A stretch of 64,000 nucleotides of DNA from Vulcanimicrobiota bacterium (GTDB lineage: Bacteria; Vulcanimicrobiota; Xenobia; Xenobiales; JADMJV01). The notes beneath the pieces were generated by a model. That model was not told the DNA's origin and made no database searches. It saw only the letters and a list, made by a program, of their open reading frames with translations. This document shows, one piece after another, positions 16,824 through 37,418 of the stretch. The stretch is from positions 2,820,891 through 2,884,890 of the forward strand of contig JBFWNU010000001.1 in the NCBI GenBank assembly GCA_050250895.1, written 5' to 3'. The position numbers and the translations under genes are program-made. How positions within the stretch are numbered: position 1 is the first letter of the stretch; each line of letters begins with the position of its first letter.

Positions 16824-16836
16824 AAGGAGCAATCTC

Positions 16837-17967
16837 ATGTTTACTTTGGAAGCTCTCGAGGCCAAAGAAGGCGATTGTTTGATTTTGCATTACGGAGATG
16901 CCGCCAATCCCCGCCGAATTTTGATTGACGGAGGACCGAGAGGTGCCTATCGTCAGGTACTGCGCAAGCGTCTGGTGGAACTTCGCGGTGTTCACGGCCC
17001 CCTCCAGTTGGAGATGGTTATGGTGAGCCATATCGACGCGGATCATATTACGGGCATCCTCGATCTGTTCAATGAGCTCGCCGAACAACGAGAGCAGGGT
17101 GATGAGCCATTGGTAGACATCGTGACCCTCTGGTTTAACAGCTTTGACGACATCCTGGGAAGCGAGGGCGATGAACTGCTCGCGCGTTTTCAGGCCGCAG
17201 CAAATACCGCTGCTGCTGGTGAGGCTCTGTCCCCCGACTCGCCTGTCTCTCAAGCCGGCGCACTCATTTTGGCGGGGGTAGGCCAGGGGCGTCGGTTGAG
17301 AGGTCTGGCAGCTGCTCTGGGCACCCAGACCAACGCAGGCTTCGAGCAGTTGGTGATGGCCGCAGCAGCCCCGGCCGAGGTTCGGCCGCTGGATCTCGGC
17401 GACGGTTTGAAGTTCACCGTCCTCGGCCCTGCGGCTGCCCAATTGGCCGCTCTTCGTCGGGAATGGGATGCGGAGCTGGCGAAGATGAAGAAGGCCTCGC
17501 GCGAGGAGGCTGCTGCTATCGGCGCCGCGTTTCTTGACGAGAGCGCCGCCAATCTCTCCAGCACCGTGGTCCTGGCCGAGCGCGGGGGCAAGCGCATGCT
17601 GCTAACGGGTGATGCCCGTGGGGACTTTGTGCTCGATGGGCTCCGCAATGCGGGCTTGCTCGAGAACGGAGAGATTCACCTTGACTTGCTAAAAGTGCCT
17701 CATCATGGTAGCGACCGCAACGTGACGTTGGACTTCTTCGAGCGGATCACGGCGGACCACTATGTTATCTCGGCTAATGGCAAGTATGACAACCCGGACC
17801 ACTCCATGCTAGAGATGTTGCGAGAAGCTCGGAAGGGGCAGCACTACACGGTCTACTTCACCAATGAGGTGACTCAGGTGACACGGTTCATGGCCCACGG
17901 TGCTGAAGATGGTTTTGATACCGTGGTCCGTGACCGCGACGCCCTGAGCCTCTCCGTAGCCCTCTAA
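16837..17967 (+). CDS. ComEC/Rec2-like MBL-fold metallo-hydrolase
   Basis: EGDCLIL, LIDGG, SHIDADHITG, LTGDA, KVPHHGS; AAGGAG RBS. Confidence 0.88.
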   Translation: MFTLEALEAKEGDCLILHYGDAANPRRILIDGGPRGAYRQVLRKRLVELRGVHGPLQLEMVMVSHIDADHITGILDLFNELAEQREQGDEPLVDIVTLWFNSFDDILGSEGDELLARFQAAANTAAAGEALSPDSPVSQAGALILAGVGQGRRLRGLAAALGTQTNAGFEQLVMAAAAPAEVRPLDLGDGLKFTVLGPAAAQLAALRREWDAELAKMKKASREEAAAIGAAFLDESAANLSSTVVLAERGGKRMLLTGDARGDFVLDGLRNAGLLENGEIHLDLLKVPHHGSDRNVTLDFFERITADHYVISANGKYDNPDHSMLEMLREARKGQHYTVYFTNEVTQVTRFMAHGAEDGFDTVVRDRDALSLSVAL

Positions 17968-18072: not shown

Positions 18073-20460
18073 CTATCGGAACGAGCGCTGGCGGCTAGCG
18101 GTCCTGCGCTTGGCCTCATCGAGCCAAGCGTTTACGGAAGCGGGCCACAGCTTGATTTTCGTTTCTCCGTCATCACCGCCGGTGGGGTCCGGACAATAGG
18201 CTACCAGGCAGCCTTTGGCAAACCCGATGACGGGCTCGAAGCCATAGTAATGCCATTCCAATTGAGCCAGAGGACGGCCTTCTGAGGTCAGCAACTCCAT
18301 GTTCAGGTCGCAGCCACCAAAACTTTGGATGCCGGCGCTCCTCGTGACAGCAAGCACTCGACGACCATCCTCAGAGCATCTGAACGCTCCTTCAGCGAGC
18401 CCATCTCGCCCGTCGGTTTGCGTCTTGGCCACCGCAATTTGGAACAAGGGCCCAAACGGACGACCATCGCGAGCTACCACCTGCCAACTCCGCGCCACGG
18501 GCTCGACCCGGAAATTCGTCATCGGCTTGAGCCCTTTCTCCCAGGTGAGGTTCTCCAGCGGCGGCCCAGAAAGCGGTTGACACGAATCGAGATCCCAGAC
18601 TTCAGCCTGACCTTCCCTGGTCGAGAAAATCTGGAGGTAACGACCGTCGGCCGAGAAACGGGGTCGCCTTTTTGATTCCAATTCAACCCCGCCGACAAAG
18701 TCACGGACACCTACCTTGTAAGCAAAGCCATCGCGACTCCCGACAAATGCCATCGAGTCAGCGGCAACACCGTCCACCGCCAAAATCTCCACTCGCGAGA
18801 GCAACCATTCGTGGATCCGGGGTTCTCGGTAAGACGGGCCCTCGTACCAGACCAGATGGCCGTCGTCGCTGCCAAAGAGCGGGCCCGGGCTGCTGCATAT
18901 ATCGTAGCAACCCCAATTGCCCACAGGCCGCGATGTCTTTTCAATCCATCCGTCATCGCCCTTCCGGAAGCACCTTACGGTAGCCCCCCTCATGGGATAC
19001 AACCAGGAACTCCTTGCGAGCCATAGCTCGTCCCCGAGGGCCTCCAGAGCCTGAATGGGTGTCCCTGCGTAGCTAAACTCCTCCTGCTTGTGCCAGACCT
19101 TCCCGCCAACTTCCGCCATGAACACCTCCCCCATGTGATTGCCTGCCCACCACTGGTTGCCAACGCTGGCAATGGCGGTGACCGCCTCTCCACGGGAAAG
19201 CTCGGTCGAGACTGTGGGCTCGAGCCTCCCACCGCTCCAGTAGTGGACCTCTACGTGCCCATCGGCGAGTCCTACAGCGACCGTTTCTCCCTGAGCCGCG
19301 ATGGCCGTGACTGGTGAGTTGAGAGACAGCACTTCCTTCCAGGTCGTGCCGTCCTTCCCCACGAAGACCTTGCCATTGGCGGCCCCCATCAGCACAGTCC
19401 CATCCGCCCATGCGAAACGACACGACCGAAATTCGACCGCCTGTAGCGGTTTCTCTTCACGAAGTTCAAGTTCCAGGACCACCTTGGGGGTCGAGTGGCC
19501 GGCATTATCCCATCGCCACACCCTCCCGTCCTGACAGCCCATCAGGACAAAGTCTCCCTTGGGACTACACGAGACCGAACAGACCGGACTCTGAAGGTTG
19601 TATTTTTCTTCGACAGGAGCCGCCTGGAGGGCTTCGACAAGTGAGGCTTTTGTTGCTTGGTACTCGGCTGGAAACAGACGTTCCATCCCCGGACGTTGAA
19701 ATTCTTCGGTGAGGGTAACGGCCAGCTTTAGCCCCTGACTGGGATCCACCTTCAATGATTGACTTATCGCCAACAACTGCCCTCGAAGTCGCGAAACATA
19801 GGAGCCGTGAGCGAAGAACAGCGCGACCCCTAGAAGCGAAGTAAAGATTGTCAATAGGGCGGTCCCCGCAACCCACCGGGTGCGCTTGTGCTCTCGAACG
19901 TCTTCGCTGACCAGTTCCTTGAGTTCCATTCCACGGATTGGAGCAGAGAGGCGGGCCGCCGCCTGCAAGAACTCTGGGTTTCTAAGACTCAACGTACCGG
20001 GGCTAGACCTCGCCCAGCCGAGATCCACCCACAAAGGCTCCTCCTGGTAAGCCTTCCGCAGAGCCGCTGGTAATGCGTCGGTCAATCCCCAATCGAAGTC
20101 TTGGTCGCCCCACGCGAAGGTGCCGTCCGAGCGGACGAGCAGCAAATTTTCAACCCTGCCCATATCTTGAACCCAATACTTGACCTCTTCGCCGACCCAC
20201 TTCGAGGCAGCCGAGGTCGGGCAACCCAAAAGAATCAGGTATCGGCTGGACTCAAGGGCTGCCTGAATCGACTTCCACGCGCCCGGTGTTGCGGCCAAAT
20301 CCGTCTCGTCACGAAAGATCCGAACACTACGCAGCCGATACCAGGGTTTTGCAAGACCCTCGAGGGCTTTCTGCAGGTGGATGGCCAATAAGCGATCGGC
20401 GGCGTGGCTGTAAGAAATAAACGCGTCGAAACGTTCTATGGAAGAGCTCGATTTACTCAT
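18073..20460 (-). CDS. TIR domain - transmembrane helix - WD40-like beta-propeller protein
   Basis: FDAFISYSH, IFRDETDL, SKWVGEEV; hydrophobic WVAGTALLTIFTSLLGVALFF; degenerate WD repeats (GCQDGRVWRWD, GLADGHVEV). Confidence 0.85.
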   Translation of the reverse strand: MSKSSSSIERFDAFISYSHAADRLLAIHLQKALEGLAKPWYRLRSVRIFRDETDLAATPGAWKSIQAALESSRYLILLGCPTSAASKWVGEEVKYWVQDMGRVENLLLVRSDGTFAWGDQDFDWGLTDALPAALRKAYQEEPLWVDLGWARSSPGTLSLRNPEFLQAAARLSAPIRGMELKELVSEDVREHKRTRWVAGTALLTIFTSLLGVALFFAHGSYVSRLRGQLLAISQSLKVDPSQGLKLAVTLTEEFQRPGMERLFPAEYQATKASLVEALQAAPVEEKYNLQSPVCSVSCSPKGDFVLMGCQDGRVWRWDNAGHSTPKVVLELELREEKPLQAVEFRSCRFAWADGTVLMGAANGKVFVGKDGTTWKEVLSLNSPVTAIAAQGETVAVGLADGHVEVHYWSGGRLEPTVSTELSRGEAVTAIASVGNQWWAGNHMGEVFMAEVGGKVWHKQEEFSYAGTPIQALEALGDELWLARSSWLYPMRGATVRCFRKGDDGWIEKTSRPVGNWGCYDICSSPGPLFGSDDGHLVWYEGPSYREPRIHEWLLSRVEILAVDGVAADSMAFVGSRDGFAYKVGVRDFVGGVELESKRRPRFSADGRYLQIFSTREGQAEVWDLDSCQPLSGPPLENLTWEKGLKPMTNFRVEPVARSWQVVARDGRPFGPLFQIAVAKTQTDGRDGLAEGAFRCSEDGRRVLAVTRSAGIQSFGGCDLNMELLTSEGRPLAQLEWHYYGFEPVIGFAKGCLVAYCPDPTGGDDGETKIKLWPASVNAWLDEAKRRTASRQRSFR

Positions 20461-20470
20461 TGCAAAAGGC

Positions 20471-22570
20471 CTACTTTCTGGCCAAGTCAAAGGGCGGGCT
20501 AGTAATCACATCGAAGCCGACCCCCGCCTGCAGGGCCAGGTTGTGGCTGGGCTTGTTCACCAGCAGGGCTCGGAGACCAGTGAAGCGGACTCTTCCATCC
20601 GGAAGCAGCGAAACGTCGACAGAGTTGACCCGATCCCTGAGCGGTTGGGTTAAGTGAACCATGCCGAGGCTAACCGAGGGCTCCAGGTCGAAAACGTCCT
20701 CATCGCCAACGACCACGACCTGGTTGTTGGCCGCCTCACCGCGCTCAACAATGGCAAGGCTGAACTTGCCTTCACCGTGAACCAACCCCAGTCGTGGCTC
20801 TTTCAACGCTAGAGGTTGGTAGTGATAGACCAGGATGTGGCGCAGGTCCCTTCCGTCCGTCCCATCGTTGTTCTTATCCAACCTTATTCGCTCCTGGTCC
20901 TCTGGCCGAACCTGGAGGAGGACGATTCCTGATGGGTCCACTCGAGCGTCCAACTCCAGTAGTTCAAACTCGTGCTTGTGTTCCAGCTCAAACAACCATT
21001 TGAAGAGCCTGAGGCCGGTCGATACCAATCCCAGTGCGCCGATGCCAGCGGGGCCAAGCAGTCCGGCCACCAATCCTGGTAAAGCCGACCGGGCGCCTTC
21101 CGCTATGAACTGCGGGAGCCTCCCTCTCTTGAGTTCGGCGTGGAGTCTTATCAACTCGCCAGTGAGTTCCAGCGGAGTCTTGCCGTCAAAGTTTGCGCCC
21201 AATTGCTGCAGGGCCAACTGACCCAAACCTCGCCCCAAATCGAGCGGCGCCACCCCAGCCGTCGCGGCCGTCACACCGCTGACCACCTCGAGGAGTCGGC
21301 GAAGGGTTTGGCGGTTGTGGAACTCACTGACGGTGCCCTCACCCGCCCTGAGCAACTTGCCGGCACTCTTGTCTTCCAAAGGGATGAGGAAGAGAGAAAA
21401 CGCAACCCCACCGAAAGTTGGCTTTCTGAGAGTCGGCCCATCATTGTGCACTACTCGCAGGAAAAAATTGCTATTCTCGAAGAAGTCCTGTTTCTTCTTG
21501 CCGGGGTCGAACATGGTCACTACGAATGTCCAGTCGCGGCCCTGATCCGAATCGAAGACCGAAGGCAGACCGAGGGCCTCGAGACCCTGACCTGATAAAT
21601 CAACTGAGAACTCATAGTTCGCGGACAAGAGTCGCGGCATCAAAGGCAGCGGGTTTGCTCTGCCCCCGTGATGCAAGTTTAGCCTCAGCGGATAAACCGT
21701 CGGAACGGGCCCGACGGGCCTGGTTTCGTCCCCTCCATCGTCGAACAGTTGGCGGCCGAGACTCGTGAGTTCCACGATTTCCGCTAGAGGAAGGAGCGGA
21801 TCGATGGAACCTTGCCGGACGCCACGAACGAACCCGCTGTCTTTGAGAGCATTTACGGCCGACATGACATCGTGAGAACGGTCGGCTACGGTCATTGCGC
21901 CCAGAGCCAGGTCTTGGACTAGCCGGAGACGTTCACGCGCCTCCGCCTGGGCATCCGCTAGAACGATGTTGAGCAAATCTAGTCCACGTCTCGTCAAGTT
22001 CTGGACCTCAGCCTCCATTTCGGAGGTGAGGTTGACAAATCCGGCACGAGCAAGCCGCAAAAGACTGTTCTTGACGTCGATTTCCAGCTTACCCGTTCGG
22101 CCCAAGAGCAGGTCTGCCAGAACTACAAGGTCCCGGAGTTGCAAGTCTTGCGTAACGGAGGTAAATGCCTCTGGCAACAGGCTGGACGGGATGCTCGAAA
22201 GGGCCGCGACGAGCAGTTGTTGGAGCTCATCGATGGCGAAGAGTTGGAGCTCGTCCAAGTCTGGCAGTTCCACTACGGGGTCGTCTAGGGCAACAGGAAG
22301 CAGCGTGGCCAGACCCTCGCGGCGCCGGGACAACGCAAGTTCCCAAAGAGGCTTGAACCAGTCTCCTTGTACGTCCGTCAGGCCATCGCTCAAAAGCGGG
22401 ACGAGTATGGCGCAGCCTCGGACCAAGTCCACCGCATCCAACAGAGGCGGTGAAACCACGCTCACTACCGCAAAAGGAATCAGCGCTTTGAATTGCTCTT
22501 CGAGTGAAAGGACAACGTCTATGGCAGCATCGCTAGCCAGTATGCCAACCTTTAACAAATGAACCCCCAT
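20471..22570 (-). CDS. Hypothetical protein; C-terminal ~400 aa paralogous to 34142-35458
   Basis: 699-aa ORF ending 10 bp before the TIR-propeller gene; shared motifs such as MFDP, PLED, GEGTV and DLRHIL.YHY. Confidence 0.8.
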   Translation of the reverse strand: MGVHLLKVGILASDAAIDVVLSLEEQFKALIPFAVVSVVSPPLLDAVDLVRGCAILVPLLSDGLTDVQGDWFKPLWELALSRRREGLATLLPVALDDPVVELPDLDELQLFAIDELQQLLVAALSSIPSSLLPEAFTSVTQDLQLRDLVVLADLLLGRTGKLEIDVKNSLLRLARAGFVNLTSEMEAEVQNLTRRGLDLLNIVLADAQAEARERLRLVQDLALGAMTVADRSHDVMSAVNALKDSGFVRGVRQGSIDPLLPLAEIVELTSLGRQLFDDGGDETRPVGPVPTVYPLRLNLHHGGRANPLPLMPRLLSANYEFSVDLSGQGLEALGLPSVFDSDQGRDWTFVVTMFDPGKKKQDFFENSNFFLRVVHNDGPTLRKPTFGGVAFSLFLIPLEDKSAGKLLRAGEGTVSEFHNRQTLRRLLEVVSGVTAATAGVAPLDLGRGLGQLALQQLGANFDGKTPLELTGELIRLHAELKRGRLPQFIAEGARSALPGLVAGLLGPAGIGALGLVSTGLRLFKWLFELEHKHEFELLELDARVDPSGIVLLQVRPEDQERIRLDKNNDGTDGRDLRHILVYHYQPLALKEPRLGLVHGEGKFSLAIVERGEAANNQVVVVGDEDVFDLEPSVSLGMVHLTQPLRDRVNSVDVSLLPDGRVRFTGLRALLVNKPSHNLALQAGVGFDVITSPPFDLARK

Positions 22571-22767
22571 AGAGCTGTTTGATAGGTCGAAGGTCCCACC
22601 CTAAGGCAGGAGTGGCCTCTTCTACTCGAGCCTTTCACTCGATGGTTGGCCCGTCCTTCTGCCCGACCGCGGAGCCGACCTTATGCGGAGGTCGGCAGAA
22701 TGGCGTGAAGGATGAGGTCTCGTCGGCCGGATTCGCAGGGGTCGTGCCCTGATCTTGCAAGGCTTGT

Positions 22768-22806
22768 CTCTCAGGAGCGCTCTCTCTCAGGAGCGCTCTC
22801 TCTCAG
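22768..22806. repeat. Short 16-bp tandem duplication (CTCTCAGGAGCGCTCT x2 plus partial) in divergent intergenic region
   Basis: Seen directly in the sequence. Confidence 0.7.
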
Positions 22807-22908: not shown

Positions 22909-24423
22909 ATGGGTCGTGAGCGCGAAGAATATATTACCTTCTTAAGCTACGCTTGGAATGATGACCGGGACTGGACGACCCATTTCGGCAATCTACTTGA
23001 AAGTATCCTTCAACAGTTCTCTGGTCAAAAGATGATGAAGATCTTTCGTGACCTAAAGTTGCGTTCGGATAAGATTCTATCGGAGGGGATACGGGAGGCT
23101 CTTGATTGTTCATCAAGCCTTACGTGCGTGATGTCCCCATCTTATCTCAAGTCCCAGTGGTGTCAAAATGAATTAAGCTATTTTCAGGAGTATCATCCGA
23201 CCCGCCCAATATTCCTCGTGACAGCAATTCCTGTGGAGGGCATCGATGGCCGTCTTCACCATCCTTTTTGGAACTATGTCCAGGAGCGAGGCCGATACAA
23301 GAGAATCAAGCCGACGGACGACGAGTTTCACGAGATTGTGGAGTACTTGGGGCAGGATATCCTAGAAGCCCTCGGTTTGTTCGAACCCCCCGGCGGCGCG
23401 CCGAAGTCCCACACCGCCGTGTCCCTCCTGGCGGAAGAGGATCGGACCAGATTGGCCTCTGGGCCACTGCCTACTGCATCGGAGAAGGGGATGCACCTTG
23501 AGGTCGCCGGACCCCATGACCTTCAACAGGTTGTTCTCTACAACTTCAACAGGAAAGCCCAAGCCTATTTTCGGTCGTTGCTTGCGCCCGCGCCAATGCA
23601 GTCACAGAACGCGCTGGAACTTCTTCGTATGATAGAGAAGTATTGCGAGGATGAAGTATTGGCCTACGGGTCTAGGTGGCTTGACGTAGGCTGTGGAACG
23701 GGTCTCGTGCTAGCGTTGATGCGAGACTGCCAAACAGCCCCTCCTCTCAACGATATCGTCACCCTCGGGTTAGACTATTCTTCTGAAATGATCAGGCTGT
23801 CAAAAGAGGTCGCTGCATACAATGATGTAGTCCAACTTGACGTCGTGGAGATGGACGCCGAGAAGTTGGGTCAACCGTTCGATTGCGTGGTGGCGAACAA
23901 CGTATTCCATTGGCTCTTGGATCTGGAAAAGATTCGGCGGGCCATGAAGAACTGTGCCTCGTGCCTGAGGCACGGCGGGATCTTGGCGGCCAGTATCGCG
24001 GGCCGTGGAACGGGGAAAGCCTTCTTCCAGGTATACCGGGAGACGATGGCCGAACTTCTTGACGGGGCAACGATGGCGAACTGGAAGTCACACATCGACA
24101 ATCCCATCGGGCTTCAAGCTTTGAGTGAAATCGTGGATCTCGCCCTTCCCAACGACTTCACTGTTGTTGAAGCTCGTCTAAGATATGAGCCTGTAGTCTA
24201 CAAAAACCCTGAAATGTATGTTGAGGCAGCTCGGGCCTACGGGGAATTTGTCTTCACTGCGCCATTTCTGGGACTGAACGGGGACGCCCTGGTTGATCAG
24301 TTCTGGCGTCGTCTCAAAGAGAAGTTTCGGCAACTCTGGGAGCAGTCACCTGCCGCAGAGCGGTTAGGTGGTAGATACCTACACGATCAGTACATGATCT
24401 ACGTTCTATATCGAAAGAGATGA
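22909..24423 (+). CDS. TIR domain - class I SAM methyltransferase fusion
   Basis: TIR: FLSYAWND, IFRD, SPSYLKSQWCQNEL. MTase: WLDVGCGTG, GLDYSSEMI, FDCVVANNVFHW, LRHGG. Confidence 0.85.
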   Translation: MGREREEYITFLSYAWNDDRDWTTHFGNLLESILQQFSGQKMMKIFRDLKLRSDKILSEGIREALDCSSSLTCVMSPSYLKSQWCQNELSYFQEYHPTRPIFLVTAIPVEGIDGRLHHPFWNYVQERGRYKRIKPTDDEFHEIVEYLGQDILEALGLFEPPGGAPKSHTAVSLLAEEDRTRLASGPLPTASEKGMHLEVAGPHDLQQVVLYNFNRKAQAYFRSLLAPAPMQSQNALELLRMIEKYCEDEVLAYGSRWLDVGCGTGLVLALMRDCQTAPPLNDIVTLGLDYSSEMIRLSKEVAAYNDVVQLDVVEMDAEKLGQPFDCVVANNVFHWLLDLEKIRRAMKNCASCLRHGGILAASIAGRGTGKAFFQVYRETMAELLDGATMANWKSHIDNPIGLQALSEIVDLALPNDFTVVEARLRYEPVVYKNPEMYVEAARAYGEFVFTAPFLGLNGDALVDQFWRRLKEKFRQLWEQSPAAERLGGRYLHDQYMIYVLYRKR

Positions 24424-24519
24424 CGAAGGTTGGCTGAACGCGGGAGCCGAGACAGACGCCACGAGGTCTACATAACCGTCTCGCGATGACATTCAAGCTC
24501 TAAGAGAGAACCAAGCTTC

Positions 24520-25746
24520 ATGCACACAGCTCAAGACCTGGACCAACTCCCAGGAATCCTTCTCGCTCAGCCCTGCATTCGGGATGGCCTCAACGAGCCA
24601 TACTCTCCCAATCACACTTCTGGGCAGACAACCACCCAGCACGTTGCCACGCAGATGGAAATGCTCACCAGGCTCCGACACGGAGACTATGCGGCGTTGC
24701 AGGCGATGGTGGCGAACCCCAACGGCGCCTTAACCGTGTCCGCGGAGGAGTTGAAGGATGTTCTCGCGCCTATGGCTGAGCAATTTGGCTCCTCAGAGTG
24801 GATGGTCCTCACGCTTGTCGTAGCCTATCACGACCTGGGCAAGATGGAGGCTGCTTGGGCCAACGAGCACGGTCTTGACACCACTGGGGTAGAGTGGTTG
24901 GCTCACGACTATGACAGTAAAGGCCTGCTGGTGGCCAATCCCGGACTCTTGACTCCCTACTCGCTCGACGAAAAGGAGCGAGAAGCCGTTCTGGAGCTTT
25001 GTCGTCTCCATTCGGTCCCCGGCCAGTTCTTTTTCGGAGAAGGCAGTTTGGCCGCCTACGAGGGGCTGCGGCATCAGCACCCTTTCGGGATGACGATGGG
25101 GCGGACTCACGGTTTGCTCGACGTGATGTCGGCTCTAAATCATGGGTTCGTCAGACCGATCCTGGAATCGCACCGCGACCTAGGAGAGCTCGTGGCCAAG
25201 GCTCAGTCTTCAGGAAGGCCTCTGGACGATGTCTTTCGAGATGCCTCGGAAGAACAGTTCGAGAAGGAAGTCGATAGCGGGGCGCCCGTGGGTGCTGTTA
25301 GTTGGCGGCGCCTTCGTCGTCTGCTCGGCAAGAGATTTTCTCCCGAGAATCTCAATGAGGCGTTGACTGCCGTCCCTGCAGAGTTTGTTACTCTGTTCGA
25401 CCTGGTGTCTGATGGCGACCATACCTGGTATGGCACCTACATCGCCAACGCCTTCGGCAGCGGTCTGTTGGCCGCTTTGGATGGGACGTCCGAGGCGGCC
25501 GGAGCGGTCGGGCTGCTGGTCAAGGCAATCGCTTGTGCGGGTCGACGAATGGAACATCGGAAGGAGTGGACCGTGAGTGCGCTAGAGCCGTCGCTTCAGG
25601 TGAAGGAAGGACGAGATGGCGCTCTGGCAGTCCTGCGAAGTCTGGCTCCAGCCGAGACCCTGGAACAAGCCTATCAGCTTCTAGATGCTGGGCCCCTGCG
25701 CTATAAAGTGGGCGATTCGGGAGTGGAGTTTTCGTGGCAGGCGTGA
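24520..25746 (+). CDS. Putative HD-domain metal-dependent phosphohydrolase
   Basis: TTTQHV...AYHDLGK...AHDYDS...RLHS...LDVMS spacing matches H..HD..H..H..D. Confidence 0.6.
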   Translation: MHTAQDLDQLPGILLAQPCIRDGLNEPYSPNHTSGQTTTQHVATQMEMLTRLRHGDYAALQAMVANPNGALTVSAEELKDVLAPMAEQFGSSEWMVLTLVVAYHDLGKMEAAWANEHGLDTTGVEWLAHDYDSKGLLVANPGLLTPYSLDEKEREAVLELCRLHSVPGQFFFGEGSLAAYEGLRHQHPFGMTMGRTHGLLDVMSALNHGFVRPILESHRDLGELVAKAQSSGRPLDDVFRDASEEQFEKEVDSGAPVGAVSWRRLRRLLGKRFSPENLNEALTAVPAEFVTLFDLVSDGDHTWYGTYIANAFGSGLLAALDGTSEAAGAVGLLVKAIACAGRRMEHRKEWTVSALEPSLQVKEGRDGALAVLRSLAPAETLEQAYQLLDAGPLRYKVGDSGVEFSWQA

Positions 25747-25873
25747 ATTACGCTTCTTCTCTCTGGACGTCGCCAACAGGCCCGGTGACGATAGCTTGTC
25801 TGCAGACCGATTGCACTCACTGAAGGATCCCGATGTAATGCAACGAAGCGGGTCGTCACTATGAGGGGGTCGA

Positions 25874-26455
25874 GTGGTAACTTTCACCAAACGCAGCTTT
25901 CGGTTGAATCTAAGTTTTGCTCAATTCGGGGGTGAGATCGACCAGGAGGATCGCCAGTGCGCCTGGGAGTTCTACTGTGAACTCACGACTCGGGTTGGTG
26001 TCCGGGGTAGATTGGACGGATCGGGCAGCGATGTCTTCACCGGCGAGATTTTGGTTGAAAGTCTCGAGTCGCTATGTACGTTCTTCCAGACGTCCCGCAT
26101 CATTATGAAGAAATACCCGGTTGGACGGGTTGCCGCCGGGGAGGCCAACCTTGGATTTGCCATTGCTCAGTTGCTCGAGTTCGTCGTCCGGCCATTCCTC
26201 GAGAAGTGGCAAGCGACCTATCGGTACTGGTGGACTGTTCATCAGGACGGCCGCAGAAACCCATTCGCCCTACAAGCAGAGTTCCCCAAGTTCGAAGAGT
26301 TGACGAAAGACTGGGTCGCCGTCCGCAAGTTTTGCCGGTCCGCTGCGCACGAACTGGCCAAAGCCTATCATCTCATCGACCTGCTGGACCTGGCACCCGA
26401 CGAGGCCCGTCAGCAACAGGTGAACGAGACGGCCGCTGTTTGCAGGCTGATTTAG
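25874..26455 (+). CDS. Conserved-looking helical hypothetical protein
   Basis: GAGGGGG RBS; AWEFYCELTTR and VRPFLEKWQ motifs; directly upstream of the TIR gene. Confidence 0.7.
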   Translation: MVTFTKRSFRLNLSFAQFGGEIDQEDRQCAWEFYCELTTRVGVRGRLDGSGSDVFTGEILVESLESLCTFFQTSRIIMKKYPVGRVAAGEANLGFAIAQLLEFVVRPFLEKWQATYRYWWTVHQDGRRNPFALQAEFPKFEELTKDWVAVRKFCRSAAHELAKAYHLIDLLDLAPDEARQQQVNETAAVCRLI

Positions 26456-26466
26456 CGGAGGACTAT

Positions 26467-27744
26467 TTGCTTAAGACGACAGTAGATACTAGGGCACCGT
26501 TTTGCCTCTATGTGGTCTGGCACCCTGAATGCACCGATGGGAAATACCTGGCCCGCCAAGTCTTTGATTGGTTTCACGCCCCGAGCGGCGAACTCCATCG
26601 GTCGGGCTTGGGAATTCCGGTATATTACCGCACTTCCAAGCAGGGGCCACCGCGTCCGCTAGAGGCGGACGAGGCCCAGCACAACGTCGTAGTCGCTCTT
26701 GTGGATCACAATCTGGTCGCGGACGCGGGTTGGCGTGGCTTCCTCGCGGGGTGTCGCCACAAGAATACGACGATCTTTCCGGTCCCGCTTCATCGCTCAG
26801 CCTATCAGCTAAGTTCCGTCAACGCTCTCAACTTTCTTCGCGTGGACGGTCGAAAAGATGGAGAAGAAGACCCTCAGCAACGACAGGAACGCCGTGGTCA
26901 ACGATTGCGCCGGCAACTGACCGAAGTCTGTGCCCGGTTGCTTCAGAAGTCGCTGCACGGAAAGACCGACGAAACCAGAGCTAATCTCGAGACGATTCTT
27001 GAGAAGATACAAGACGAGGTGGATTGCCTCGAGTTGCGCAAGTACCTCGCACCGGTCTTCCGTGACGAAGCGGGGGAACCCGTCACCATCTTTCTCAGCC
27101 ATGCCAAGGCTGATGGCACCGATGTCACCGAGAAGTTGCGAATGCATGTCCAGACCTACGGCCAGTTGCGCTCTTTCTACGATGAGAGTGACCTGCCTAT
27201 CGGCTACCAGTTCGGGAACAAGTTGGAGGAGGCCGTGAAAGAAGGTGGCGCTATGATTTCAGTGGTGACCGATGCCTATGCCAGCCGACCTTGGTGCCGG
27301 GCTGAGTTGGCTTGGGCGCGGCGTCCACGACTGGAGGAGGGTAGCCTAAGTCATTGGAAGGTGACGCCCACCCTGGTTGTGACAGCAATGAGCGGTGGCC
27401 TGACCAGGACCATACCCGAAATAGGGAATCTTCCTTCCATCCACTGGGTGCCAGGACGCGAACAGTACATATTGGATTTGCTCCTTCTGGAGGTGCTGCT
27501 GGCAAGTTATCATCGCCTGAACGCGCAGAGCATTGTTCATCGTTCCGGGCGCCATGTAATTAGCTGGGTGCCCGACCCGATCTCGGTCATGGAACTGGCC
27601 GCGACCTGCCGCGCTGAAGGGCTTGAGCTAAACGAACTGGTTTACCCGGGTCACGGTATCTCGGCGGCCGAACGGGAGGCCATCAAGCGCATCGTGCCAG
27701 GAACGCTCACTTTGAGGACCTATGAGGAGGCCTGGCAAGAATGA
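26467..27744 (+). CDS. TIR domain protein (SLOG-associated)
   Basis: TTG start after GGAGG; IFLSHAKADG, FYDESDL, YASRPWCRAEL; ATGA overlap with the next gene. Confidence 0.85.
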   Translation: MLKTTVDTRAPFCLYVVWHPECTDGKYLARQVFDWFHAPSGELHRSGLGIPVYYRTSKQGPPRPLEADEAQHNVVVALVDHNLVADAGWRGFLAGCRHKNTTIFPVPLHRSAYQLSSVNALNFLRVDGRKDGEEDPQQRQERRGQRLRRQLTEVCARLLQKSLHGKTDETRANLETILEKIQDEVDCLELRKYLAPVFRDEAGEPVTIFLSHAKADGTDVTEKLRMHVQTYGQLRSFYDESDLPIGYQFGNKLEEAVKEGGAMISVVTDAYASRPWCRAELAWARRPRLEEGSLSHWKVTPTLVVTAMSGGLTRTIPEIGNLPSIHWVPGREQYILDLLLLEVLLASYHRLNAQSIVHRSGRHVISWVPDPISVMELAATCRAEGLELNELVYPGHGISAAEREAIKRIVPGTLTLRTYEEAWQE

Positions 27745-28712
27745 GCAGGAAGCTTGTCGCTCTCTCGTTCGGCGATAGCCCTGACCTGGCGGAATTGGGC
27801 TATGATGCCGAGCATCTCGATGTGGTCGCCATGCGCATCGCCAGGTTTCTCTTGCGTCGTGGTTATGACATCGCATACGGCGGGGTCTTCCGTTCTCAAA
27901 GCTTTCTAGACACATTGCTCGAACTTGTTCGTGCCGAGACGGCCCATCAGCAGGAAGAGGCGCAGGCCGAGGGACGGCAGTGGTCTGAATCTGAGCCACG
28001 ACTATTTAGCTATCAGGCCTGGCCCTATTATGATGCTATCACCACAGAAGTCATAGCCGATACTCTCGGTTTCATTCGCTACGTCAAGGTCCATCCCGTC
28101 GACGGAGAAGGCATCGACCATCGCACTCGGGCCCGTCACTTTTTGGATCCCCCAGACGGCAACATTCCCAAAGGCGCGGCTTTGATGGCAGCGGCGCTCA
28201 CCCGGATGCGCAGGGCCATGACCGCGCCAGCAGTTGACATCGACGGGGGTGACGTCTCCGCCCCCAGCGCCCGCATTGTGCTAGGCGGAGCCGTCGAGAA
28301 TTGGGCCGGAATTTTGCCCGGCATAGCAGAAGAGATTCTCTGGACTGCCCGAGCCGGGCAACCCGTCTACATCTTGGGGGCTTTCGGAGGCTCAGCAAAG
28401 GTTGTCGCAGACTATCTGCGCGACGGTGAGAATTTACCCAAAGTCCTGACCCTTGAGCATCATCGCTCCAACGCCAAAATGGCCAGGGTCATCGAGGGTT
28501 TCCCCGCCATCGGCTTCGAGGCTGTTTATCCCGAAGAGGGGTTCCGGGAACTCCAAAGGTTTCTCGCGGAAGCATGCGGGAACTTTAGCCTGCTCAATCC
28601 GCTCGGTGAAGAGAACCGCGAGCTAATGACAAGTCACAATGTCATCAATATCCTTCGTATACTCAAAACTCAGTTTCCCGATCTTCGGGGGCAGCACTCG
28701 ACCCCCAGTTGA
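27741..28712 (+). CDS. Stand-alone SLOG (SMF/DprA/LOG) domain protein
   Basis: ALSFGDSPDL, IAYGG, LTRMR, RIVLGG, PGIAEE, YILGAFGG. Confidence 0.75.
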   Translation: MSRKLVALSFGDSPDLAELGYDAEHLDVVAMRIARFLLRRGYDIAYGGVFRSQSFLDTLLELVRAETAHQQEEAQAEGRQWSESEPRLFSYQAWPYYDAITTEVIADTLGFIRYVKVHPVDGEGIDHRTRARHFLDPPDGNIPKGAALMAAALTRMRRAMTAPAVDIDGGDVSAPSARIVLGGAVENWAGILPGIAEEILWTARAGQPVYILGAFGGSAKVVADYLRDGENLPKVLTLEHHRSNAKMARVIEGFPAIGFEAVYPEEGFRELQRFLAEACGNFSLLNPLGEENRELMTSHNVINILRILKTQFPDLRGQHSTPS

Positions 28713-28757: not shown

Positions 28758-31700
28758 TCATCTTGCGGCGCCCCGAATCCAACCGACGACAGCGTTATTG
28801 AGCTTGACCAGTCTGATGACGACCGGGTCTTGAGCAGAGAATTTTCGCCTGCGAACCTTGATGCAGAACTCCAGCAATTCCAGCAGAGAACGGAACTGGA
28901 AGGGGGAACTTCCACGTTGCCAGGACGCCTCAAATCCGGCCAGGACGCGACCTAGCTCTTCTTCTGGTGCTCCGTCGCAGACCCAGCGCATGAAGAGTCG
29001 GCGAGCCGCCTTCATGTGCTCGAAGAACGTGGATCCACTTGCCTCTAGCGCGGGAAGAACCAATTCGGGCGCAGCCGCGGGCCAAGCCTGACACATCCTG
29101 GCCAGGAAGAGATAGTCCAGCAGATAATCATCGTCGCGGGCCAATTCAACAGCCGCCTGATAGCCGGCTCGCATCTCCTCGAGAAGGGCGTCACTGGTCT
29201 TATCGCCTGCTTCGCGCAGCATCGCCAACATCGCCCCTCCACCAATGCGAGAATGCGCCTTGGCATTGGGACAGATCGCAACCATGCCCTTTCTGTCGTC
29301 CAAGATTTCTTGAATGCTGCGAGGCGTCGGTTCGCTCTGCTCTGCTCTAAACCAGAGAAGCATCTCAAGGCGCAGCAAAATGGACAAATCGTCCATAGTG
29401 ATCAACGACGACTCTTTAGCCTTGTGGAACAGGTCAAAGGCCGAGACGAGAGCACTGTCGGCCGGTAGGGCTGCTTGCCCGATTTCGCTCAAGCCAAATA
29501 GTGGATGGATTAATTGGCTGTAGGCTCTTGCCAGGGCAAGCAAGACATCGGGCCTGCCAGAGCCCCGTTCCTCGCCCAGCCAGGTCGGTTTGGCCGCACG
29601 ACGAAGCGACTCGAGTTCCTTGAGAAGACCCGAATAGTCGTCCAGTTGGCAAACCTCGGCTCGTTGGCTGAGATTTTCGAGGTCACGGACAAATTCTCGG
29701 GGGCTGACGTAAGGATCGGTCTCTCTGGACTGCGCGTATCCAGGATCCGAGGACCACCGGTACTCAGGATCGCCGTAACACTGGTAGGCGCCCCAGGAAT
29801 TGAACTGGCTGTACTCGTTCCAGGTGGCTTGACGGGCGTGCAAAACGGCTCGGCCGAAAGTCTCCCCTTTGCTCATCTCTTGGTAGAAAGTGCGGGCGAA
29901 TAGCTCGGCGGAGTTGTCCTCCACGGCCCAACCGGCCGCGATAACCGCACGAGCGCCCGCGCGGATTATCGCCGTCGCCAGATTGGCCGCCAACTCGTTT
30001 GACCTTTGCTCATAGCGTTCAATTCGGCCCAGGTGGCAGCAGTTGATAAATACCAACTCAGGACAGGGGTTGAGTTGTGATACCGTGGCCGGGGTCAACA
30101 GCATGTCAGGGCCGATCACCATGCCCGCTTCGGGCTTCTCGCCAGAATTGTCGTACACGCCGTGACCCGCCAGATGCAGCACTCGATAGGGACGAGACAG
30201 CAGTGCGGTACCCACCGTCACTCCGTCAGGCCGCGGAAGGTGCGTTACCTGGAACTTGCCCGCCGACAAGGTCTGTGCGACCGCGCGGGCTTCGTCTTGC
30301 GCGGCCTTTAGCTCGGCGAGCTTGCTGACGGGATCTCCGACAACGAGCGCAGTGAAGAGGTCGGTAGGGCGTGCTTGATCGCGAAACTCTGAGCTGGCAA
30401 GTTGGCGAATCATTTCGGACCGAACCGATACTGGACGTGAATCTCGGTCCTCACCGCCATCGACCAATAGCTCCCAGGGAAATCGCGCCGCAGCTTCGTC
30501 TAGCAGCAAGATGACCTTTTCTTCGGAATCGCCCACTTCTTTCAGGCGATATGGCATCAATAGTTGGTAAAGTGCCCGAGAGAGGTCCGGGTTCCACTGC
30601 GGAACTGTCGAGGCCTGCCGCAGCATGCCGTCTACAAGTTGGCGATCATAGGGAAGCGGCATCACTTCGCTGCGGGCGAGACTGGTAAGGAGCGTGTGAC
30701 GCAGCTGGCCTGTCTCTTCCTCTGTGATTTGCAGGCGCTGCCACTTCGACATCCCGCGCTGAAAACTGGCTCGTGACAAACGTCCAGAGACCGTCCGGAC
30801 CTCACCAGAGAACTCGAACATGCCACCCAGCTTCTCGCCCTGGCAGAGCTGGCGAGCAACGTGAGCGGCAGCGATGGCGCGGTCCTCGTAGAGTTCGATG
30901 AACTCGATATGCCTCAGGTCGTCGCTGGCCCCCGCAGAAGCCAACACCTGCTTCGCCTCCAGGACACCATTAAGAATGCAACTGATGCTCCCTTCCAACC
31001 CGATTCCGCCCTCCATCGAACCAATGGCCACGAAGGAAAGTCCGCCACCAACGGTCGTTGCTCGACCCTCTAGCAGAAACTCCACCACGGCCTGGCGGAC
31101 GGTTTTTACTAACTGGGTTTGCTTGAGTGCGCCAAACTGGCCGAGGCCAATCAAGATGCCACCTTTGAAGGCTCCGGTACCGTCTGGGTCTGGCAGCAGA
31201 TAACGTCGGGATGATTCCAGCCGCCATGGGTATACTCCGCAGGCTCGTTCCAGGGATAGATGACCCCCTAACTTGTAATCGAGCGCCCGCTCCGAGCCTT
31301 CAATGGGTTGCTTGTGGTAACAGCCCAGCGCGACGGGAAAAGCGGCATAACCGAGATCGCCGTGCGTGACGCCGACGCGAACACGGGTGTCCGGTTGTTG
31401 GTCGAGGGGTGCCACATCCTGAGCCCCGAGCACGGCCGCCTCGAGTTCGCGTTGGGTAAGGAAGGTCAGGGGGACATCGTCGTATTCCAACTCGGGTCCA
31501 GAGCGAAGTCGACGGGCTGGAGGCTGGGTAGGCTCGACGCCACGGCCTTGGGTCCAGCCATCATTTAAGAGCTGGAGATAGCCCTCGAAAGCAGGTCGGT
31601 GGGAAGGTAGATTGCCGTGCGAAGCTTCAGCATAGAACATCGGCACGCCAGGCAGTTTTCCGCGAGCCCAGGGCACCGTACCGTCGCCCTCCGCCGTCAC

Positions 31701-34034: not shown

Positions 34035-34141
34035 GACCGACACCTCCCCGAATTGGTCGCTATTGGTTCCTGGAGAAGGCGCAGACTCCTCCGAAGTGGA
34101 CCACTGCCGAATGAACTGAGATTGTAGGCCCGCTGACCGCG

Positions 34142-37084: not shown

Positions 37085-37112
37085 TCAGCTCTCAGAAAGG
37101 ATTCGATTTCCC

Positions 37113-37418
37113 ATGGCCGCAAAATGTGAATTGGTCGACCTTTATAATAAGGAGACCATCCAGAATCTCCCCGCGCCCGGAGACGGCGAGTCTTATGCTG
37201 TCTTTCGCGTCGCCGAGTTTACCGAGGCCGGAATCCATGGCTTCATCCGATTGGTCCCCGCCGTGGGCCTGTCTATGTCTCGCAGCAGCATCCCCAAGGA
37301 GAAGGCTGCGCGCATTGGCCAGTTGGCGGCCCAGGTAGTGGAGACGCTCGAAGACGGCAAGATTTCCGACTTCGAGATCTTCATGTTGATGTCTGCCATC
37401 AGGCAGTTGAACAAATAG
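37113..37418 (+). CDS. Hypothetical protein
   Basis: AAAGGA RBS; within the cluster; C-terminal EDGKISDFE. Confidence 0.6.
   Translation: MAAKCELVDLYNKETIQNLPAPGDGESYAVFRVAEFTEAGIHGFIRLVPAVGLSMSRSSIPKEKAARIGQLAAQVVETLEDGKISDFEIFMLMSAIRQLNK

What the first reader, a model, noticed from the sequence alone, without database searches (positions are those of the whole stretch)
22909..25746. TIR-methyltransferase fusion paired with an HD-type hydrolase
Seen: an N-terminal TIR with catalytic Glu joined to a small-molecule-type class I MTase (trans-aconitate MTase-like NNVFHW; no DPPY/NPPY or PCQ motif), followed by an HD-motif protein. Known: TIR enzymes in Thoeris variants make ADPR-derived signals from NAD+. 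Inference: the fusion may make or respond to a methylated nucleotide signal, with the HD protein processing or resetting it. I do not recognise this architecture from described systems.
Basis: partly seen in the sequence, partly recalled or inferred. Interest (0 to 1): 0.7.

Follow-up and report, generated by a model that had tools for sequence, protein, structure and literature searches.

The report
Conserved TIR–methyltransferase fusion; HD neighbour unlinked
A rare but conserved bacterial protein joins an NAD-cleaving immune domain (TIR) to a small-molecule methyltransferase inside a large defence island, while the phosphohydrolase gene next to it does not travel with it elsewhere.

Summary
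22909-24423(+) encodes a 504-aa TIR + class I SAM methyltransferase (MTase). Its Glu88 aligns with the catalytic Glu of plant RUN1 TIR. The MTase fold matches Tam/BioC/JHAMT-type small-molecule enzymes and has no DNA-MTase motifs. 24520-25746(+) encodes a divergent HD-superfamily protein from a rare family.

New: the fusion recurs. Seven other 50%-identity representatives carry TIR_2 plus the same MTase subfamily, and the TIR Glu and SAM/substrate motifs are invariant across all eight. The same MTase clade is also fused to sigma54-type AAA+ ATPases.

The HD pairing is not conserved. In 4 of 4 genomic loci with an HD homologue, no TIR, MTase or other island gene lies within 10 kb. Neighbourhoods of the other fusions could not be fetched.

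The genes sit in a ~32-kb low-GC3 island holding four TIR proteins, a SLOG protein and a CHAT giant; a fifth TIR protein lies outside it.

Best reading: a two-enzyme NAD+-targeting defence protein, with HD probably a neighbour rather than a dedicated partner. This is a new variant of TIR immunity. The mechanism is untested.

The parts
22767..22806 (.). Perfect 16-bp tandem repeat (TCTCTCAGGAGCGCTC x2.5) in the divergent intergenic region upstream of the TIR-MTase gene. It may be a regulator-binding site; its function is unknown.
   Evidence: Tandem Repeats Finder: 100% matches, score 80. The sequence was read.
22909..24423 (+). TIR-methyltransferase fusion gene (504 aa, P0001).
   Evidence: Translation. 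Pfam TIR_2 plus Methyltransf_12/11/25. Seven other representatives have the same architecture. AF2 pLDDT 85.5.
22930..23388 (+). TIR domain (about residues 8-160). The catalytic Glu88 is at 23170-23172. Residues ~100-160 are an insertion relative to the other fusions.
   Evidence: Pfam. Alignment to RUN1 TIR. S13, Y14, D18, Y79, C85 and E88 are invariant in 8 of 8 fusions. The insertion and the low pLDDT at residues 110-135 are seen.
23491..24420 (+). Class I SAM-dependent small-molecule methyltransferase domain (residues ~195-504). It has an N-terminal lid helix (NF..A..Y...MQ), motif I GCGTG (23689-23703), the NNVFHW motif (23896-23913) and a C-terminal cap (NPIGL, YEPV, HDQY).
   Evidence: Pfam and NCBIfam. 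Motif positions. Invariant columns. Foldseek hits to 3ccf, JHAMT, BioC and Tam.
24520..25746 (+). Divergent HD-superfamily protein (408 aa, P0002). The HD dyad H104-D105 is at 24829-24834. It is co-directional and 96 bp downstream of the fusion gene. A functional link to the TIR-MTase is not supported by conservation.
   Evidence: Absence of TIR or MTase near homologues.
25874..26455 (+). Small protein of unknown family (193 aa, P0031). It is the first gene of a tightly packed three-gene set and is probably a separate module.
   Evidence: Translation. No Pfam match. The ESM Atlas holds the protein from residue 11 on; feature-search look-alike clusters of hypothetical proteins score 0.94.
26467..27744 (+). 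Second TIR protein (425 aa from TTG 26467, preceded by GGAGG at 26457-26461). The TIR domain is at residues 208-292 and carries the catalytic-type Glu (WCRAEL). The listed ATG at 26074 gives a spurious Arg/Pro-rich extension that overlaps P0031.
27741..28712 (+). SLOG cluster-2 protein (323 aa). Its start overlaps the stop of the second TIR gene by 4 bp.
   Evidence: Pfam PF18163, E 3.7e-40. Coordinates. No PADLOC, PDB or PHROG match.

Best explanation
The gene at 22909-24423 encodes a self-contained two-enzyme protein of a small conserved family. It lies in a horizontally acquired defence/conflict island.

Proposed steps:
1. The N-terminal TIR domain cleaves NAD+, probably after self-association. 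This is inferred from the intact catalytic Glu and from what is known of TIR enzymes.
2. The C-terminal Tam/BioC/JHAMT-like methyltransferase uses SAM to methylate a small molecule. This is inferred from the intact SAM-binding motifs, lid and pocket.
3. I take the two activities to be coupled on the NAD+-derived small-molecule pool. The MTase either tailors a TIR product or methyl-traps a common pyridine or carboxylate product so that NAD+ loss cannot be repaired. I cannot tell which of the two. Its relatives methylate carboxylates or thiols. Its pocket is shared with stand-alone and AAA+-fused relatives. Together these favour a common metabolite over a TIR-only product.

The HD-superfamily gene 96 bp downstream may be co-transcribed. 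It belongs to a rare family that occurs without TIR or MTase elsewhere. It is therefore most likely an independent nucleotide/phosphoester hydrolase gene and not an obligatory partner. The tightly packed P0031/TIR/SLOG trio further downstream is probably a separate Thoeris-like module.

Shown: the domain identities, the conservation of the fusion and of its catalytic motifs, the island context, and the lack of HD linkage in four loci.
Inferred: NADase activity, methyl transfer, the substrate, and a defence role.
For: - Domains: Pfam TIR_2 and Methyltransf_* are above their cut-offs.
- TIR: Glu88 aligns to the RUN1 Glu that is Ala in the deposited variant 7s2z.
- Recurrence: an exhaustive phmmer search of 1.84 billion representatives gave 737 hits at E<=1e-3. 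I scanned 21 of the top hits with Pfam: 7 are TIR_2+MTase, 2 are sigma54-AAA+ +MTase and 12 are MTase only.
- Conservation: in the 8-fusion alignment S13, Y14, D18, Y79, C85, E88, D259, G261, G263, G265, D289, D311, N330, H334, W335 and N398-L402 are invariant.
- Fold: AF2 pLDDT 85.5. The best Foldseek hits are small-molecule MTases: 3ccf, JHAMT, BioC, Tam, GtmA/TmtA, E 5e-15 to 5e-11.
- Clade: a quick ML tree puts the 14 fused or N-extended MTases plus P0050 in one clade (SH-aLRT 94), apart from 29 stand-alone ones.
- Island: GC3 is 0.53-0.74 for genes at 13.6-45.0 kb against 0.79-0.86 in the flanks. The neighbours are a TIR-WD40 protein, a second TIR, SLOG, a CHAT giant, a ThsB-like TIR and a subtilase+MBL pair (PADLOC LmuA/Avs1a-like).
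- HD not linked: 0 of 4 HD loci have a TIR, an MTase or any of the 14 other island proteins tested. The loci share no neighbour. Of 26 neighbouring ORFs, 1 has a strong and 1 a marginal PADLOC hit.
Against: - No biochemical or phage data exist.
- The neighbourhoods of the 7 other fusions, and of the closest HD homologues (P0004-P0007, 45-49% identity), could not be fetched. HD linkage within the close clade therefore remains possible.
- The four HD loci examined hold the more distant members (35-41% identity).
- HD is co-directional with only a 96-bp gap and no convincing terminator before it, which fits co-transcription.
- In L003 the HD homologue is followed 2 nt later by a Nuc_deoxyri_tr2 protein. 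That fold class is grouped with TIR and SLOG (PMC9503650, section 3.3.3, passage seen). This hints at a looser HD/N-glycosidase theme.
- Invariant SAM and pocket residues would also be kept in a ligand-sensing, non-catalytic domain.
- The AAA+ fusions and the stand-alone relatives with the same pocket motifs (29 of 31 keep N..HW) argue against a substrate made only by TIR.
- The tree is the quick version; its key branch (SH-aLRT 94) is under the 95 mark.
Confidence: 0.4

Rival explanations
1. Sensor-effector model. TIR is the NADase effector, and the MTase-fold domain is a ligand sensor (for SAM, SAH or a small metabolite, or as a guard of the SAM pool). Its occupancy controls TIR assembly, so the protein is a one-protein abortive-infection switch.
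For: - Other TIR proteins in the same window carry C-terminal non-catalytic or sensor-type domains: WD40 at 18073-20490 and FGE-sulfatase at 58181-59695.
- In both fusion types the MTase sits C-terminal to an oligomerising module, either TIR or a sigma54-type AAA+.
- Conserved SAM-binding residues are equally expected for a SAM sensor.
Against: - The lid helix (N212, F213, A217, Y220, M230, Q231), motifs I-IV and the cap motifs are all invariant.
- The cap and pocket motifs are shared with stand-alone enzymes, as expected for an active enzyme.
- I know of no MTase-fold sensor in defence systems (recalled knowledge, not searched for specifically).
Confidence: 0.25
2. TIR-MTase makes or responds to a methylated NAD-derived signal, and the HD protein is its dedicated processing or resetting enzyme. 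The downstream SLOG protein may be the receptor. On this reading it is one multi-gene Thoeris-like system.
For: - Five co-directional genes lie at 22909-28712 with gaps of 96, 127, 11 and -4 bp.
- A TIR-plus-SLOG logic is known from Thoeris (PMC7272460, search listing and abstract start only; PMC9503650, passages).
- The HD family has an H/HD/H/H/D pattern. That this pattern is typical of two-metal phosphodiesterases is recalled knowledge.
- In L003 an HD homologue is tightly coupled to a deoxyribosyltransferase-like gene.
Against: - HD homologues occur without TIR, MTase or SLOG in 4 of 4 loci.
- The longest contig of P0022 (48,696 bp) matches none of the contig lengths in the HD hit list.
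- The SLOG protein has no recognisable effector domain and no PADLOC match.
- The MTase pocket is shared with stand-alone and AAA+-fused relatives.
Confidence: 0.12
3. The HD protein is the executioner, and the TIR-MTase activates it. On this reading HD is a Cas3-HD-like nuclease or a SAMHD1-like nucleotide-depleting enzyme.
For: - Weak Cas3-HD similarity: PADLOC Cas3 models at E 0.003-0.014, and 10 of 18 family members hit Pfam Cas3_HD at E<=0.1.
- SAMHD1 and phosphodiesterases are among the top fold matches.
Against: - All these similarities are below significance.
- The family shows no conserved partner in the four loci examined.
- In those four loci it is mostly outside recognisable defence contexts.
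Confidence: 0.08
4. Not immunity at all. The TIR-MTase is a metabolic or regulatory enzyme, for example of pyridine-nucleotide turnover or cell-cell signalling, that happens to lie in a variable island.
For: - Stand-alone relatives of the MTase are common.
- PADLOC has no dedicated model for the protein. Its hits are generic: mad2 on the MTase core at E 3.6e-16, and ThsB at E 0.003.
- There is no match in phage or plasmid collections.
Against: - The gene is embedded in a low-GC3 island dense in TIR, CHAT, SLOG and subtilase/MBL genes, and a Dpd-type cluster lies just outside the island.
- The family is very rare and the TIR carries a catalytic Glu. Both are typical of conflict genes.
Confidence: 0.1

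Closest known systems
Thoeris (ThsB TIR signal synthase + ThsA SLOG/Macro effector)
   Same: - A TIR domain with a catalytic Glu.
- A SLOG protein and a second TIR gene lie 2-4 kb downstream on the same strand.
- Defence-island context.
   Different: - The TIR matches ThsB models only weakly: Pfam ThsB_TIR E 0.051, PADLOC ThsB E 0.003-0.007.
- The TIR is fused to a methyltransferase. No such fusion turned up in the literature searches run here, and I know of none in any Thoeris type (recalled).
- The SLOG protein has no SIR2, TM or Macro effector domain and no PADLOC hit.
Other bacterial TIR fusion proteins (TIR-SAVED, TIR-STING, TIR-APAZ/SPARTA, TIR-WD40/TPR); names recalled
   Same: An N-terminal TIR NADase-type domain is joined to a C-terminal module that sets its specificity. 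The family is rare and island-borne.
   Different: Here the C-terminal module is a complete enzyme with an intact SAM site, not a nucleotide- or protein-binding sensor.
Tam / BioC / JHAMT-type small-molecule methyltransferases (PDB 2p35, 8x8j, 7v2s; uncharacterised 3ccf)
   Same: The same fold, with a lid helix and cap (target TM 0.73-0.84), and the N..[HQ]W motif. Its role in these enzymes is recalled knowledge.
   Different: - It is not an equivalog. BioC TIGR02072 scores 64.4 bits against a cut-off of 184.95, and Tam NF002463 scores 26.2 against 297.
- Sequence identity is 15-20%.
- It is fused to TIR or AAA+.
- The substrate is unknown.
HD-domain phosphohydrolases (class I PDEs, SAMHD1, Cas3 HD, HD-GYP)
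   Same: An HDxGK motif aligned to an HD-GYP protein, an H...HD...H...H...D pattern, and an all-alpha fold whose best matches are PDE5/10 and SAMHD1.
   Different: - P0002 itself passes no Pfam or NCBIfam model.
- Fold matches are weak (E>=0.02, TM 0.2-0.3).
- An extra conserved N-terminal SPNH..G.TT..H segment and a C-terminal helical/beta domain are present.
- The family is rare: 18 other clusters were found.

Membership tests
TIR domain (Pfam TIR_2 / TIR) | Profile match above the curated cut-off | tested here: met
   TIR_2 scores 37.4 bits against 28, and TIR scores 27.4 against 21.3.
TIR domain (enzymatic NADase class) | Catalytic glutamate in the WC..EL helix | tested here: met
   E88 aligns to the RUN1 Glu, which is Ala in the deposited variant 7s2z. 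It is invariant in 8 of 8 fusions.
TIR domain (enzymatic NADase class) | NAD+ cleavage activity | not testable with these tools
   This needs an enzyme assay.
Thoeris | ThsB-type TIR protein | tested here: inconclusive
   Pfam ThsB_TIR gives E 0.051 (14.4 bits against a cut-off of 21.2). PADLOC ThsB gives E 0.0027-0.0074.
Thoeris | Adjacent ThsA-type effector (SLOG or Macro sensor fused to SIR2, TM or another effector) | tested here: not met
   The nearest SLOG protein (27741-28712) is three genes away. It has only the SLOG cluster-2 domain and no PADLOC hit.
Class I SAM-dependent methyltransferase | Rossmann-type MTase profile and GxGxG motif I with the downstream acidic residues | tested here: met
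   Methyltransf_12 scores 63.7 bits against 30. GCGTG starts at residue 261. D259, G261, G263, G265, D289 and D311 are invariant.
BioC / trans-aconitate MTase (Tam) equivalogs | NCBIfam equivalog score above the cut-off | tested here: not met
   BioC scores 64.4 against 184.95. Tam scores 26.2 against 297 and 23.8 against 320. The fold class is shared.
DNA/RNA amino- or C5-methyltransferases | (D/N)PP(Y/F/W) or PCQ catalytic motif | tested here: not met
   None of DPPY, NPPY, PPY, PPF, PPW or PCQ is present.
MADS defence system (PADLOC mad2) | A full-length mad2 match plus the other mad genes nearby | tested here: not met
   The hit (E 3.6e-16) covers only the MTase core: residues 225-368 against profile positions 266-401 of 492. 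The 12 neighbouring proteins scanned gave no mad hits.
HD superfamily (Pfam PF01966) | Profile match above the cut-off | tested here: inconclusive
   P0002 itself has no hit. Of 18 family members, 5 hit at E<=0.1, best 3e-4. The L004 homologue scores 23.6 bits against 22.
HD superfamily | Conserved His-Asp dyad and flanking metal-ligand His/Asp | tested here: met
   H41, H104, D105, H129, D130, D132, H164, D201 and H218 are invariant in 18 sequences. HDLGK aligns to the HDIGK of an HD-GYP protein.
HD superfamily | HD all-alpha fold | tested here: inconclusive
   AF2 pLDDT is 88.3. The top PDB matches are PDE5/10, SAMHD1 and a tRNA-processing enzyme, but no match reaches E<=0.001 and TM is 0.2-0.3.

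The most novel reading that the evidence does not exclude
TIR-MTase fusions carry out a SAM-dependent tailoring step in TIR signalling. The TIR domain makes an ADPR-type conjugate from NAD+, and the fused carboxyl/heteroatom methyltransferase methylates it. The result would be a new class of methylated second messenger. In this locus the downstream SLOG protein would read it and the rare HD phosphohydrolase would clear it. A related variant is that the MTase methyl-traps the pyridine leaving group, making NAD+ depletion resistant to phage NAD+-rebuilding pathways.
Probability: 0.12. Interest if true: 0.85.

Novelty: new variant of a known kind. Interest (0 to 1): 0.5.

Why it matters
TIR enzymes are central to immunity in bacteria, plants and animals, and each new TIR product has opened a new signalling pathway. 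This family joins a catalytically intact TIR to a catalytically intact small-molecule methyltransferase, and purifying selection keeps both sites. That makes it a concrete, testable candidate for SAM-dependent chemistry on NAD+-derived molecules, either signal tailoring or blocking of NAD+ salvage. Neither is known for TIR systems. The protein is a single polypeptide, so NAD+ + SAM reactions with LC-MS and two point mutants would settle it. The negative result on the HD pairing also matters. It keeps a two-gene 'system' from being defined on adjacency in one genome.

Tried and rejected
This is no evidence either way.
- The word-indexed homologue search with P0001 found only one other fusion (P0022). 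With the 8-fusion profile it found nothing new. The other fusions exist only in the 50%-representative library, so their contig data were not available.
Sources and contigs of those proteins stayed unknown.
- tblastn of P0001 and P0002 against plasmids and phages gave no match.
- A profile search of the HD family against PDB sequences gave only chance-level hits, E>=0.6.
- Foldseek of the HD model against viral structures gave nothing at E<=0.001.
- hhalign of the HD family against an HD-GYP protein aligned only the HDxGK motif, probability 10%.
- The ESM Atlas search for HD gave, as nearest cluster, a 'putative HD domain-containing protein' cluster in which 13% of members carry PF01966. This is a lead only.
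- hhalign of the N-termini of the AAA+-MTase proteins against the TIR alignment showed no similarity. The N-terminus of P0043 aligned weakly (E 0.04) with the second half of the TIR, so it may be a truncated fusion.
- The promoter/terminator scan found counts no higher than in shuffled sequence. No + strand promoter-like site lies before either gene.
- No tRNA lies in the window to mark an integration site.
- The Burroughs et al. 2015 NAR paper on SLOG/TIR systems is not held. What it says about SLOG cluster 2 or TIR fusions could not be checked.
- Literature searches for PF18163 / SLOG cluster 2 gave 0 papers. The search for 'type III Thoeris/ThcA/ThcB' returned only unrelated cannabinoid papers.
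- No supplementary files were opened.
- I rejected the ATG at 26074 as the start of the second TIR gene. Its first ~125 residues are Arg/Pro-rich and overlap P0031 in another frame.


Full report
**What is there**

The window has two co-directional ORFs at the stated coordinates: 22909-24423 (504 aa, P0001) and 24520-25746 (408 aa, P0002). They are 96 bp apart, and no convincing terminator lies between them.

P0001 matches Pfam TIR_2 at residues 11-98 (E 4.1e-9, above the cut-off). It matches five generic class I methyltransferase models at residues 248-365 (E down to 2.8e-17).

I searched residues 1-161 against PDB sequences. The best hit was the plant RUN1 TIR domain (E 5.7e-6). The query 'WCQNEL' lies over RUN1 'WCLDEL', and the deposited RUN1 variant 7s2z has Ala at exactly that Glu. 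I recall this as the catalytic glutamate of TIR NADases.

The MTase part has GCGTG starting at residue 261 and NNVFHW at residue 330. It has no DPPY, NPPY or PCQ motif. An AlphaFold2 model built on 54 aligned sequences has mean pLDDT 85.5. The linker at residues 163-179 has low confidence.

Foldseek against the PDB gives only small-molecule methyltransferases at the top (E 5e-15 to 5e-11; target TM up to 0.84):
- an uncharacterised Anabaena enzyme (3ccf)
- juvenile-hormone acid MTase
- BioC
- trans-aconitate MTase (2p35)
- the thiol MTases GtmA and TmtA

The protein is not a BioC or Tam equivalog. The NCBIfam scores are 64 against 185 bits and 26 against 297 bits.

**The HD protein**

P0002 on its own reaches no Pfam or NCBIfam family. 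A search of 5.8 billion clustered proteins gave 19 hits. One of them is the window's own protein in a shorter public gene call (324 aa). I aligned P0002 with 17 of the hits, leaving out that self-hit and a 273-aa fragment.

The alignment shows invariant H41, H104-D105, H129-D130, D132, H164, D201 and H218, plus a conserved N-terminal SPNH..G.TT..H segment. The long form of the gene is therefore the right one.

Evidence that the family belongs to the HD superfamily:
- 5 of 18 members touch Pfam HD and 10 of 18 touch Cas3_HD at E<=0.1.
- One homologue passes the HD cut-off.
- HDLGK aligns to the HDIGK of an HD-GYP protein.
- The AF2 model (pLDDT 88.3) finds only HD-fold enzymes at the top: PDE5/10, SAMHD1 and a tRNA-processing enzyme. 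All are weak, with no hit at E<=0.001 and TM 0.2-0.3.

I conclude it is a divergent, rare HD-superfamily protein of a family that no Pfam or NCBIfam model captures. The histidine/aspartate pattern is one I recall as typical of two-metal HD enzymes.

**Is the fusion real and recurrent?**

An exhaustive phmmer search of 1.84 billion 50%-identity representatives returned 737 hits at E<=1e-3 and 16 at E<=1e-30. I scanned 21 of the best with Pfam:
- 7 carry TIR_2 followed by the same MTase (P0032, P0033, P0022, P0037, P0038, P0039, and the truncated P0076).
- 2 carry a sigma54-type AAA+ ATPase followed by the MTase (P0034, P0035).
- 12 show the MTase only. Some of these (P0041, P0036, P0042) look like 5'-truncated fusions.

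Across the eight fusions these residues are invariant:
- TIR: S13, Y14, D18, Y79, C85, E88
- MTase: D259, G261, G263, G265, D289, D311, N330, H334, W335, N398-L402
- Lid helix: N212, F213, A217, Y220, M230, Q231

A quick maximum-likelihood tree of 45 MTase domains puts the 14 fused or N-extended proteins plus P0050 in one clade (SH-aLRT 94, just under the 95 mark). The other 29 stand-alone ~285-aa enzymes fall outside it, and one long-branch row is sister to the clade. The careful search did not finish, and I left out fragments and hits beyond P0075.

The stand-alone relatives keep the pocket and cap motifs:
- N..[HQ]W in 29 of 31
- [YF]EP in 24 of 31
- HDQ[YFW] in 22 of 31
- [DN]PIG in 18 of 31

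**Is the HD pairing conserved?**

A scan of 185,579 species-representative genomes with the HD alignment found four loci: a Synergistia MAG, a Burkholderiales MAG and two Woesearchaeota MAGs.

A Pfam scan of 25 ORFs covering the HD homologues and their flanking genes found no TIR and no methyltransferase. The neighbours include an NB-ARC/TPR regulator, a Crp-type regulator, a GAF-HD-GYP protein, MetRS, ABC transporter parts and a flavodoxin. tblastn of 15 island proteins against the four loci hit only HD. An all-against-all ORF comparison found no neighbour shared across the loci. Only 1 of 26 neighbouring ORFs has a strong PADLOC match.

One detail runs the other way. In L003 the HD homologue is followed 2 nt later by a nucleoside 2-deoxyribosyltransferase-like gene. 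That fold class is grouped with TIR and SLOG in PMC9503650 (passage of section 3.3.3 seen).

From the fusion side, only P0022 has contig data (longest contig 48,696 bp). No HD hit shares that contig length. The neighbourhoods of the other fusions and of the closest HD homologues could not be fetched, so the test is incomplete. What could be tested speaks against a dedicated pair.

**Surroundings**

Genes between about 13.6 and 45.0 kb have GC3 of 0.53-0.74. The flanking genes have 0.79-0.86 (GC profile). This marks an acquired island of about 32 kb. The island holds:
- a subtilase + metallo-beta-lactamase pair; the latter matches PADLOC LmuA and Avs1a models
- a TIR-WD40 protein, with an overlapping 699-aa unknown
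- the TIR-MTase and the HD gene
- a tight trio: P0031 (193 aa), a second TIR protein and a SLOG cluster-2 protein
- a 1824-aa DUF7379/LCAT/CHAT protein
- peptidoglycan hydrolases
- a ThsB-like TIR protein

In the trio, the second TIR gene's true start is probably TTG 26467, just after a GGAGG. The SLOG gene's start overlaps the TIR stop by 4 bp.

Outside the island lie a 7-deazaguanine (Dpd-type) gene set, a TIR-FGE-sulfatase protein, an SNF2 helicase and a kinase-AAA-TPR protein.

**How it most likely works**

Shown: the domains, the conserved fusion, the conserved catalytic motifs and the island context.

Inferred: the TIR cleaves NAD+, and the MTase transfers a methyl group from SAM to a small molecule.

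I commit, at about 40%, to coupled catalysis on NAD+-derived small molecules within one polypeptide. The HD gene is then a neighbour rather than an obligatory partner. Two sub-versions remain open: tailoring of a TIR product into a signal, or methyl-trapping of a common pyridine/carboxylate product so that NAD+ cannot be rebuilt.

Three observations lean towards a common metabolite and against a substrate made only by TIR:
- the carboxyl/thiol-MTase fold class
- the pocket shared with stand-alone enzymes
- the AAA+ fusions

The main rival, at about 25%, is that the MTase fold is a SAM or ligand sensor that gates a TIR NADase effector. The C-terminal WD40 and FGE domains of the other TIR proteins in this window suggest this.

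**Comparison with known systems**

The closest described logic is Thoeris. However, the ThsB match is weak, no ThsA-type effector is adjacent, and no Thoeris type I know of has a methyltransferase. I found no paper describing a TIR-methyltransferase fusion. There were 0 hits for four literal terms, and nothing in the passages found by term search in PMC8195603, PMC7159879, PMC9503650 and PMC9153377. The 2015 NAR survey of TIR/SLOG systems is not held and could not be checked.

I rate the finding as a new variant of a known kind, and its interest as moderate. The fusion family is real and testable. The proposed two-gene system is not supported.

Noticed in passing
window 13589-45038: An island of about 32 kb has GC3 of 0.53-0.74 against 0.79-0.86 in the flanks. 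It is packed with conflict-type genes. No tRNA lies in the window and no integrase was noticed.
   Followed up: partly
window 15060-17967 (+): A subtilase (Peptidase_S8; PADLOC 'subtilase' E 1.8e-41) overlaps a metallo-beta-lactamase-fold protein that matches PADLOC LmuA (1e-51), RTasMBL and Avs1a models. This is a candidate two-gene defence module.
   Followed up: no
window 18073-22570 (-): A TIR-WD40/beta-propeller protein (805 aa) overlaps by 20 bp an upstream 699-aa protein with no family match. The pair is divergent from the TIR-MTase gene.
   Followed up: no
window 25874-28712 (+): A tight trio: P0031 (193 aa, unknown), a TIR protein (425 aa, with the catalytic-type Glu) and a SLOG cluster-2 protein. 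The gaps are 11 bp and -4 bp. It is Thoeris-like in logic, but no effector domain is recognisable and there is no PADLOC hit for the SLOG protein.
   Followed up: partly
window 28758-35458 (-): A 1824-aa protein with DUF7379, an LCAT-like lipase region and a CHAT (caspase-like) protease domain. A 438-aa ORF with no family match lies next to it on the same strand, and the two ORFs overlap.
   Followed up: no
window 35702-40876 (+): A run of peptidoglycan hydrolase genes: CHAP-PG_binding-GH108, GH19-Peptidase_M15, and NlpC/P60. A catalase-like fragment protein lies among them, inside the island.
   Followed up: no
window 41007-45038 (+): A ThsB-like TIR protein (256 aa; Pfam ThsB_TIR 1.2e-8) lies between two unknown proteins of 548 and 578 aa.
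   Followed up: no
window 45681-53713: A Dpd-type 7-deazaguanine DNA-modification gene set: QueC, a radical-SAM QueE-like protein, FolE2, two DndB-like proteins and a TGT-like protein. An HNH protein lies next to it.
   Followed up: no
window 58181-59695 (+) and 60790-63999 (+): A further TIR fusion, TIR + FGE-sulfatase domain (504 aa), followed downstream by a large SNF2/DEAD helicase that runs off the window.
   Followed up: no
window 13589-14674 (-): A 361-aa protein with only a marginal DUF4062 match (E 0.075). A 2026 preprint abstract (10.64898/2026.09.04.749371, search listing only) renames that domain as the NADase domain 'NIR'.
   Followed up: no
window 24520-24772: The public gene call of the HD protein (P0003, 324 aa) starts at Met85. 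Homologues align from residue ~14 and conserve H32 and H41, so the longer ORF is the real one.
   Followed up: yes
L003 9857-11715: In a Woesearchaeota MAG the HD homologue is followed 2 nt later by a Nuc_deoxyri_tr2 (deoxyribosyltransferase-like) gene. It is the only case among the four loci of an HD homologue next to a TIR/SLOG-class fold.
   Followed up: partly
proteins P0034, P0035 (no window coordinates): The same MTase clade occurs at the C-terminus of ~900-aa proteins. These have a sigma54-interaction AAA+ ATPase and an unrecognised N-terminal domain.
   Followed up: partly
window 8259-12315: A Ser/Thr kinase-AAA-TPR protein (1163 aa) and an Imm33-like immunity-domain protein lie just outside the island.
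   Followed up: no
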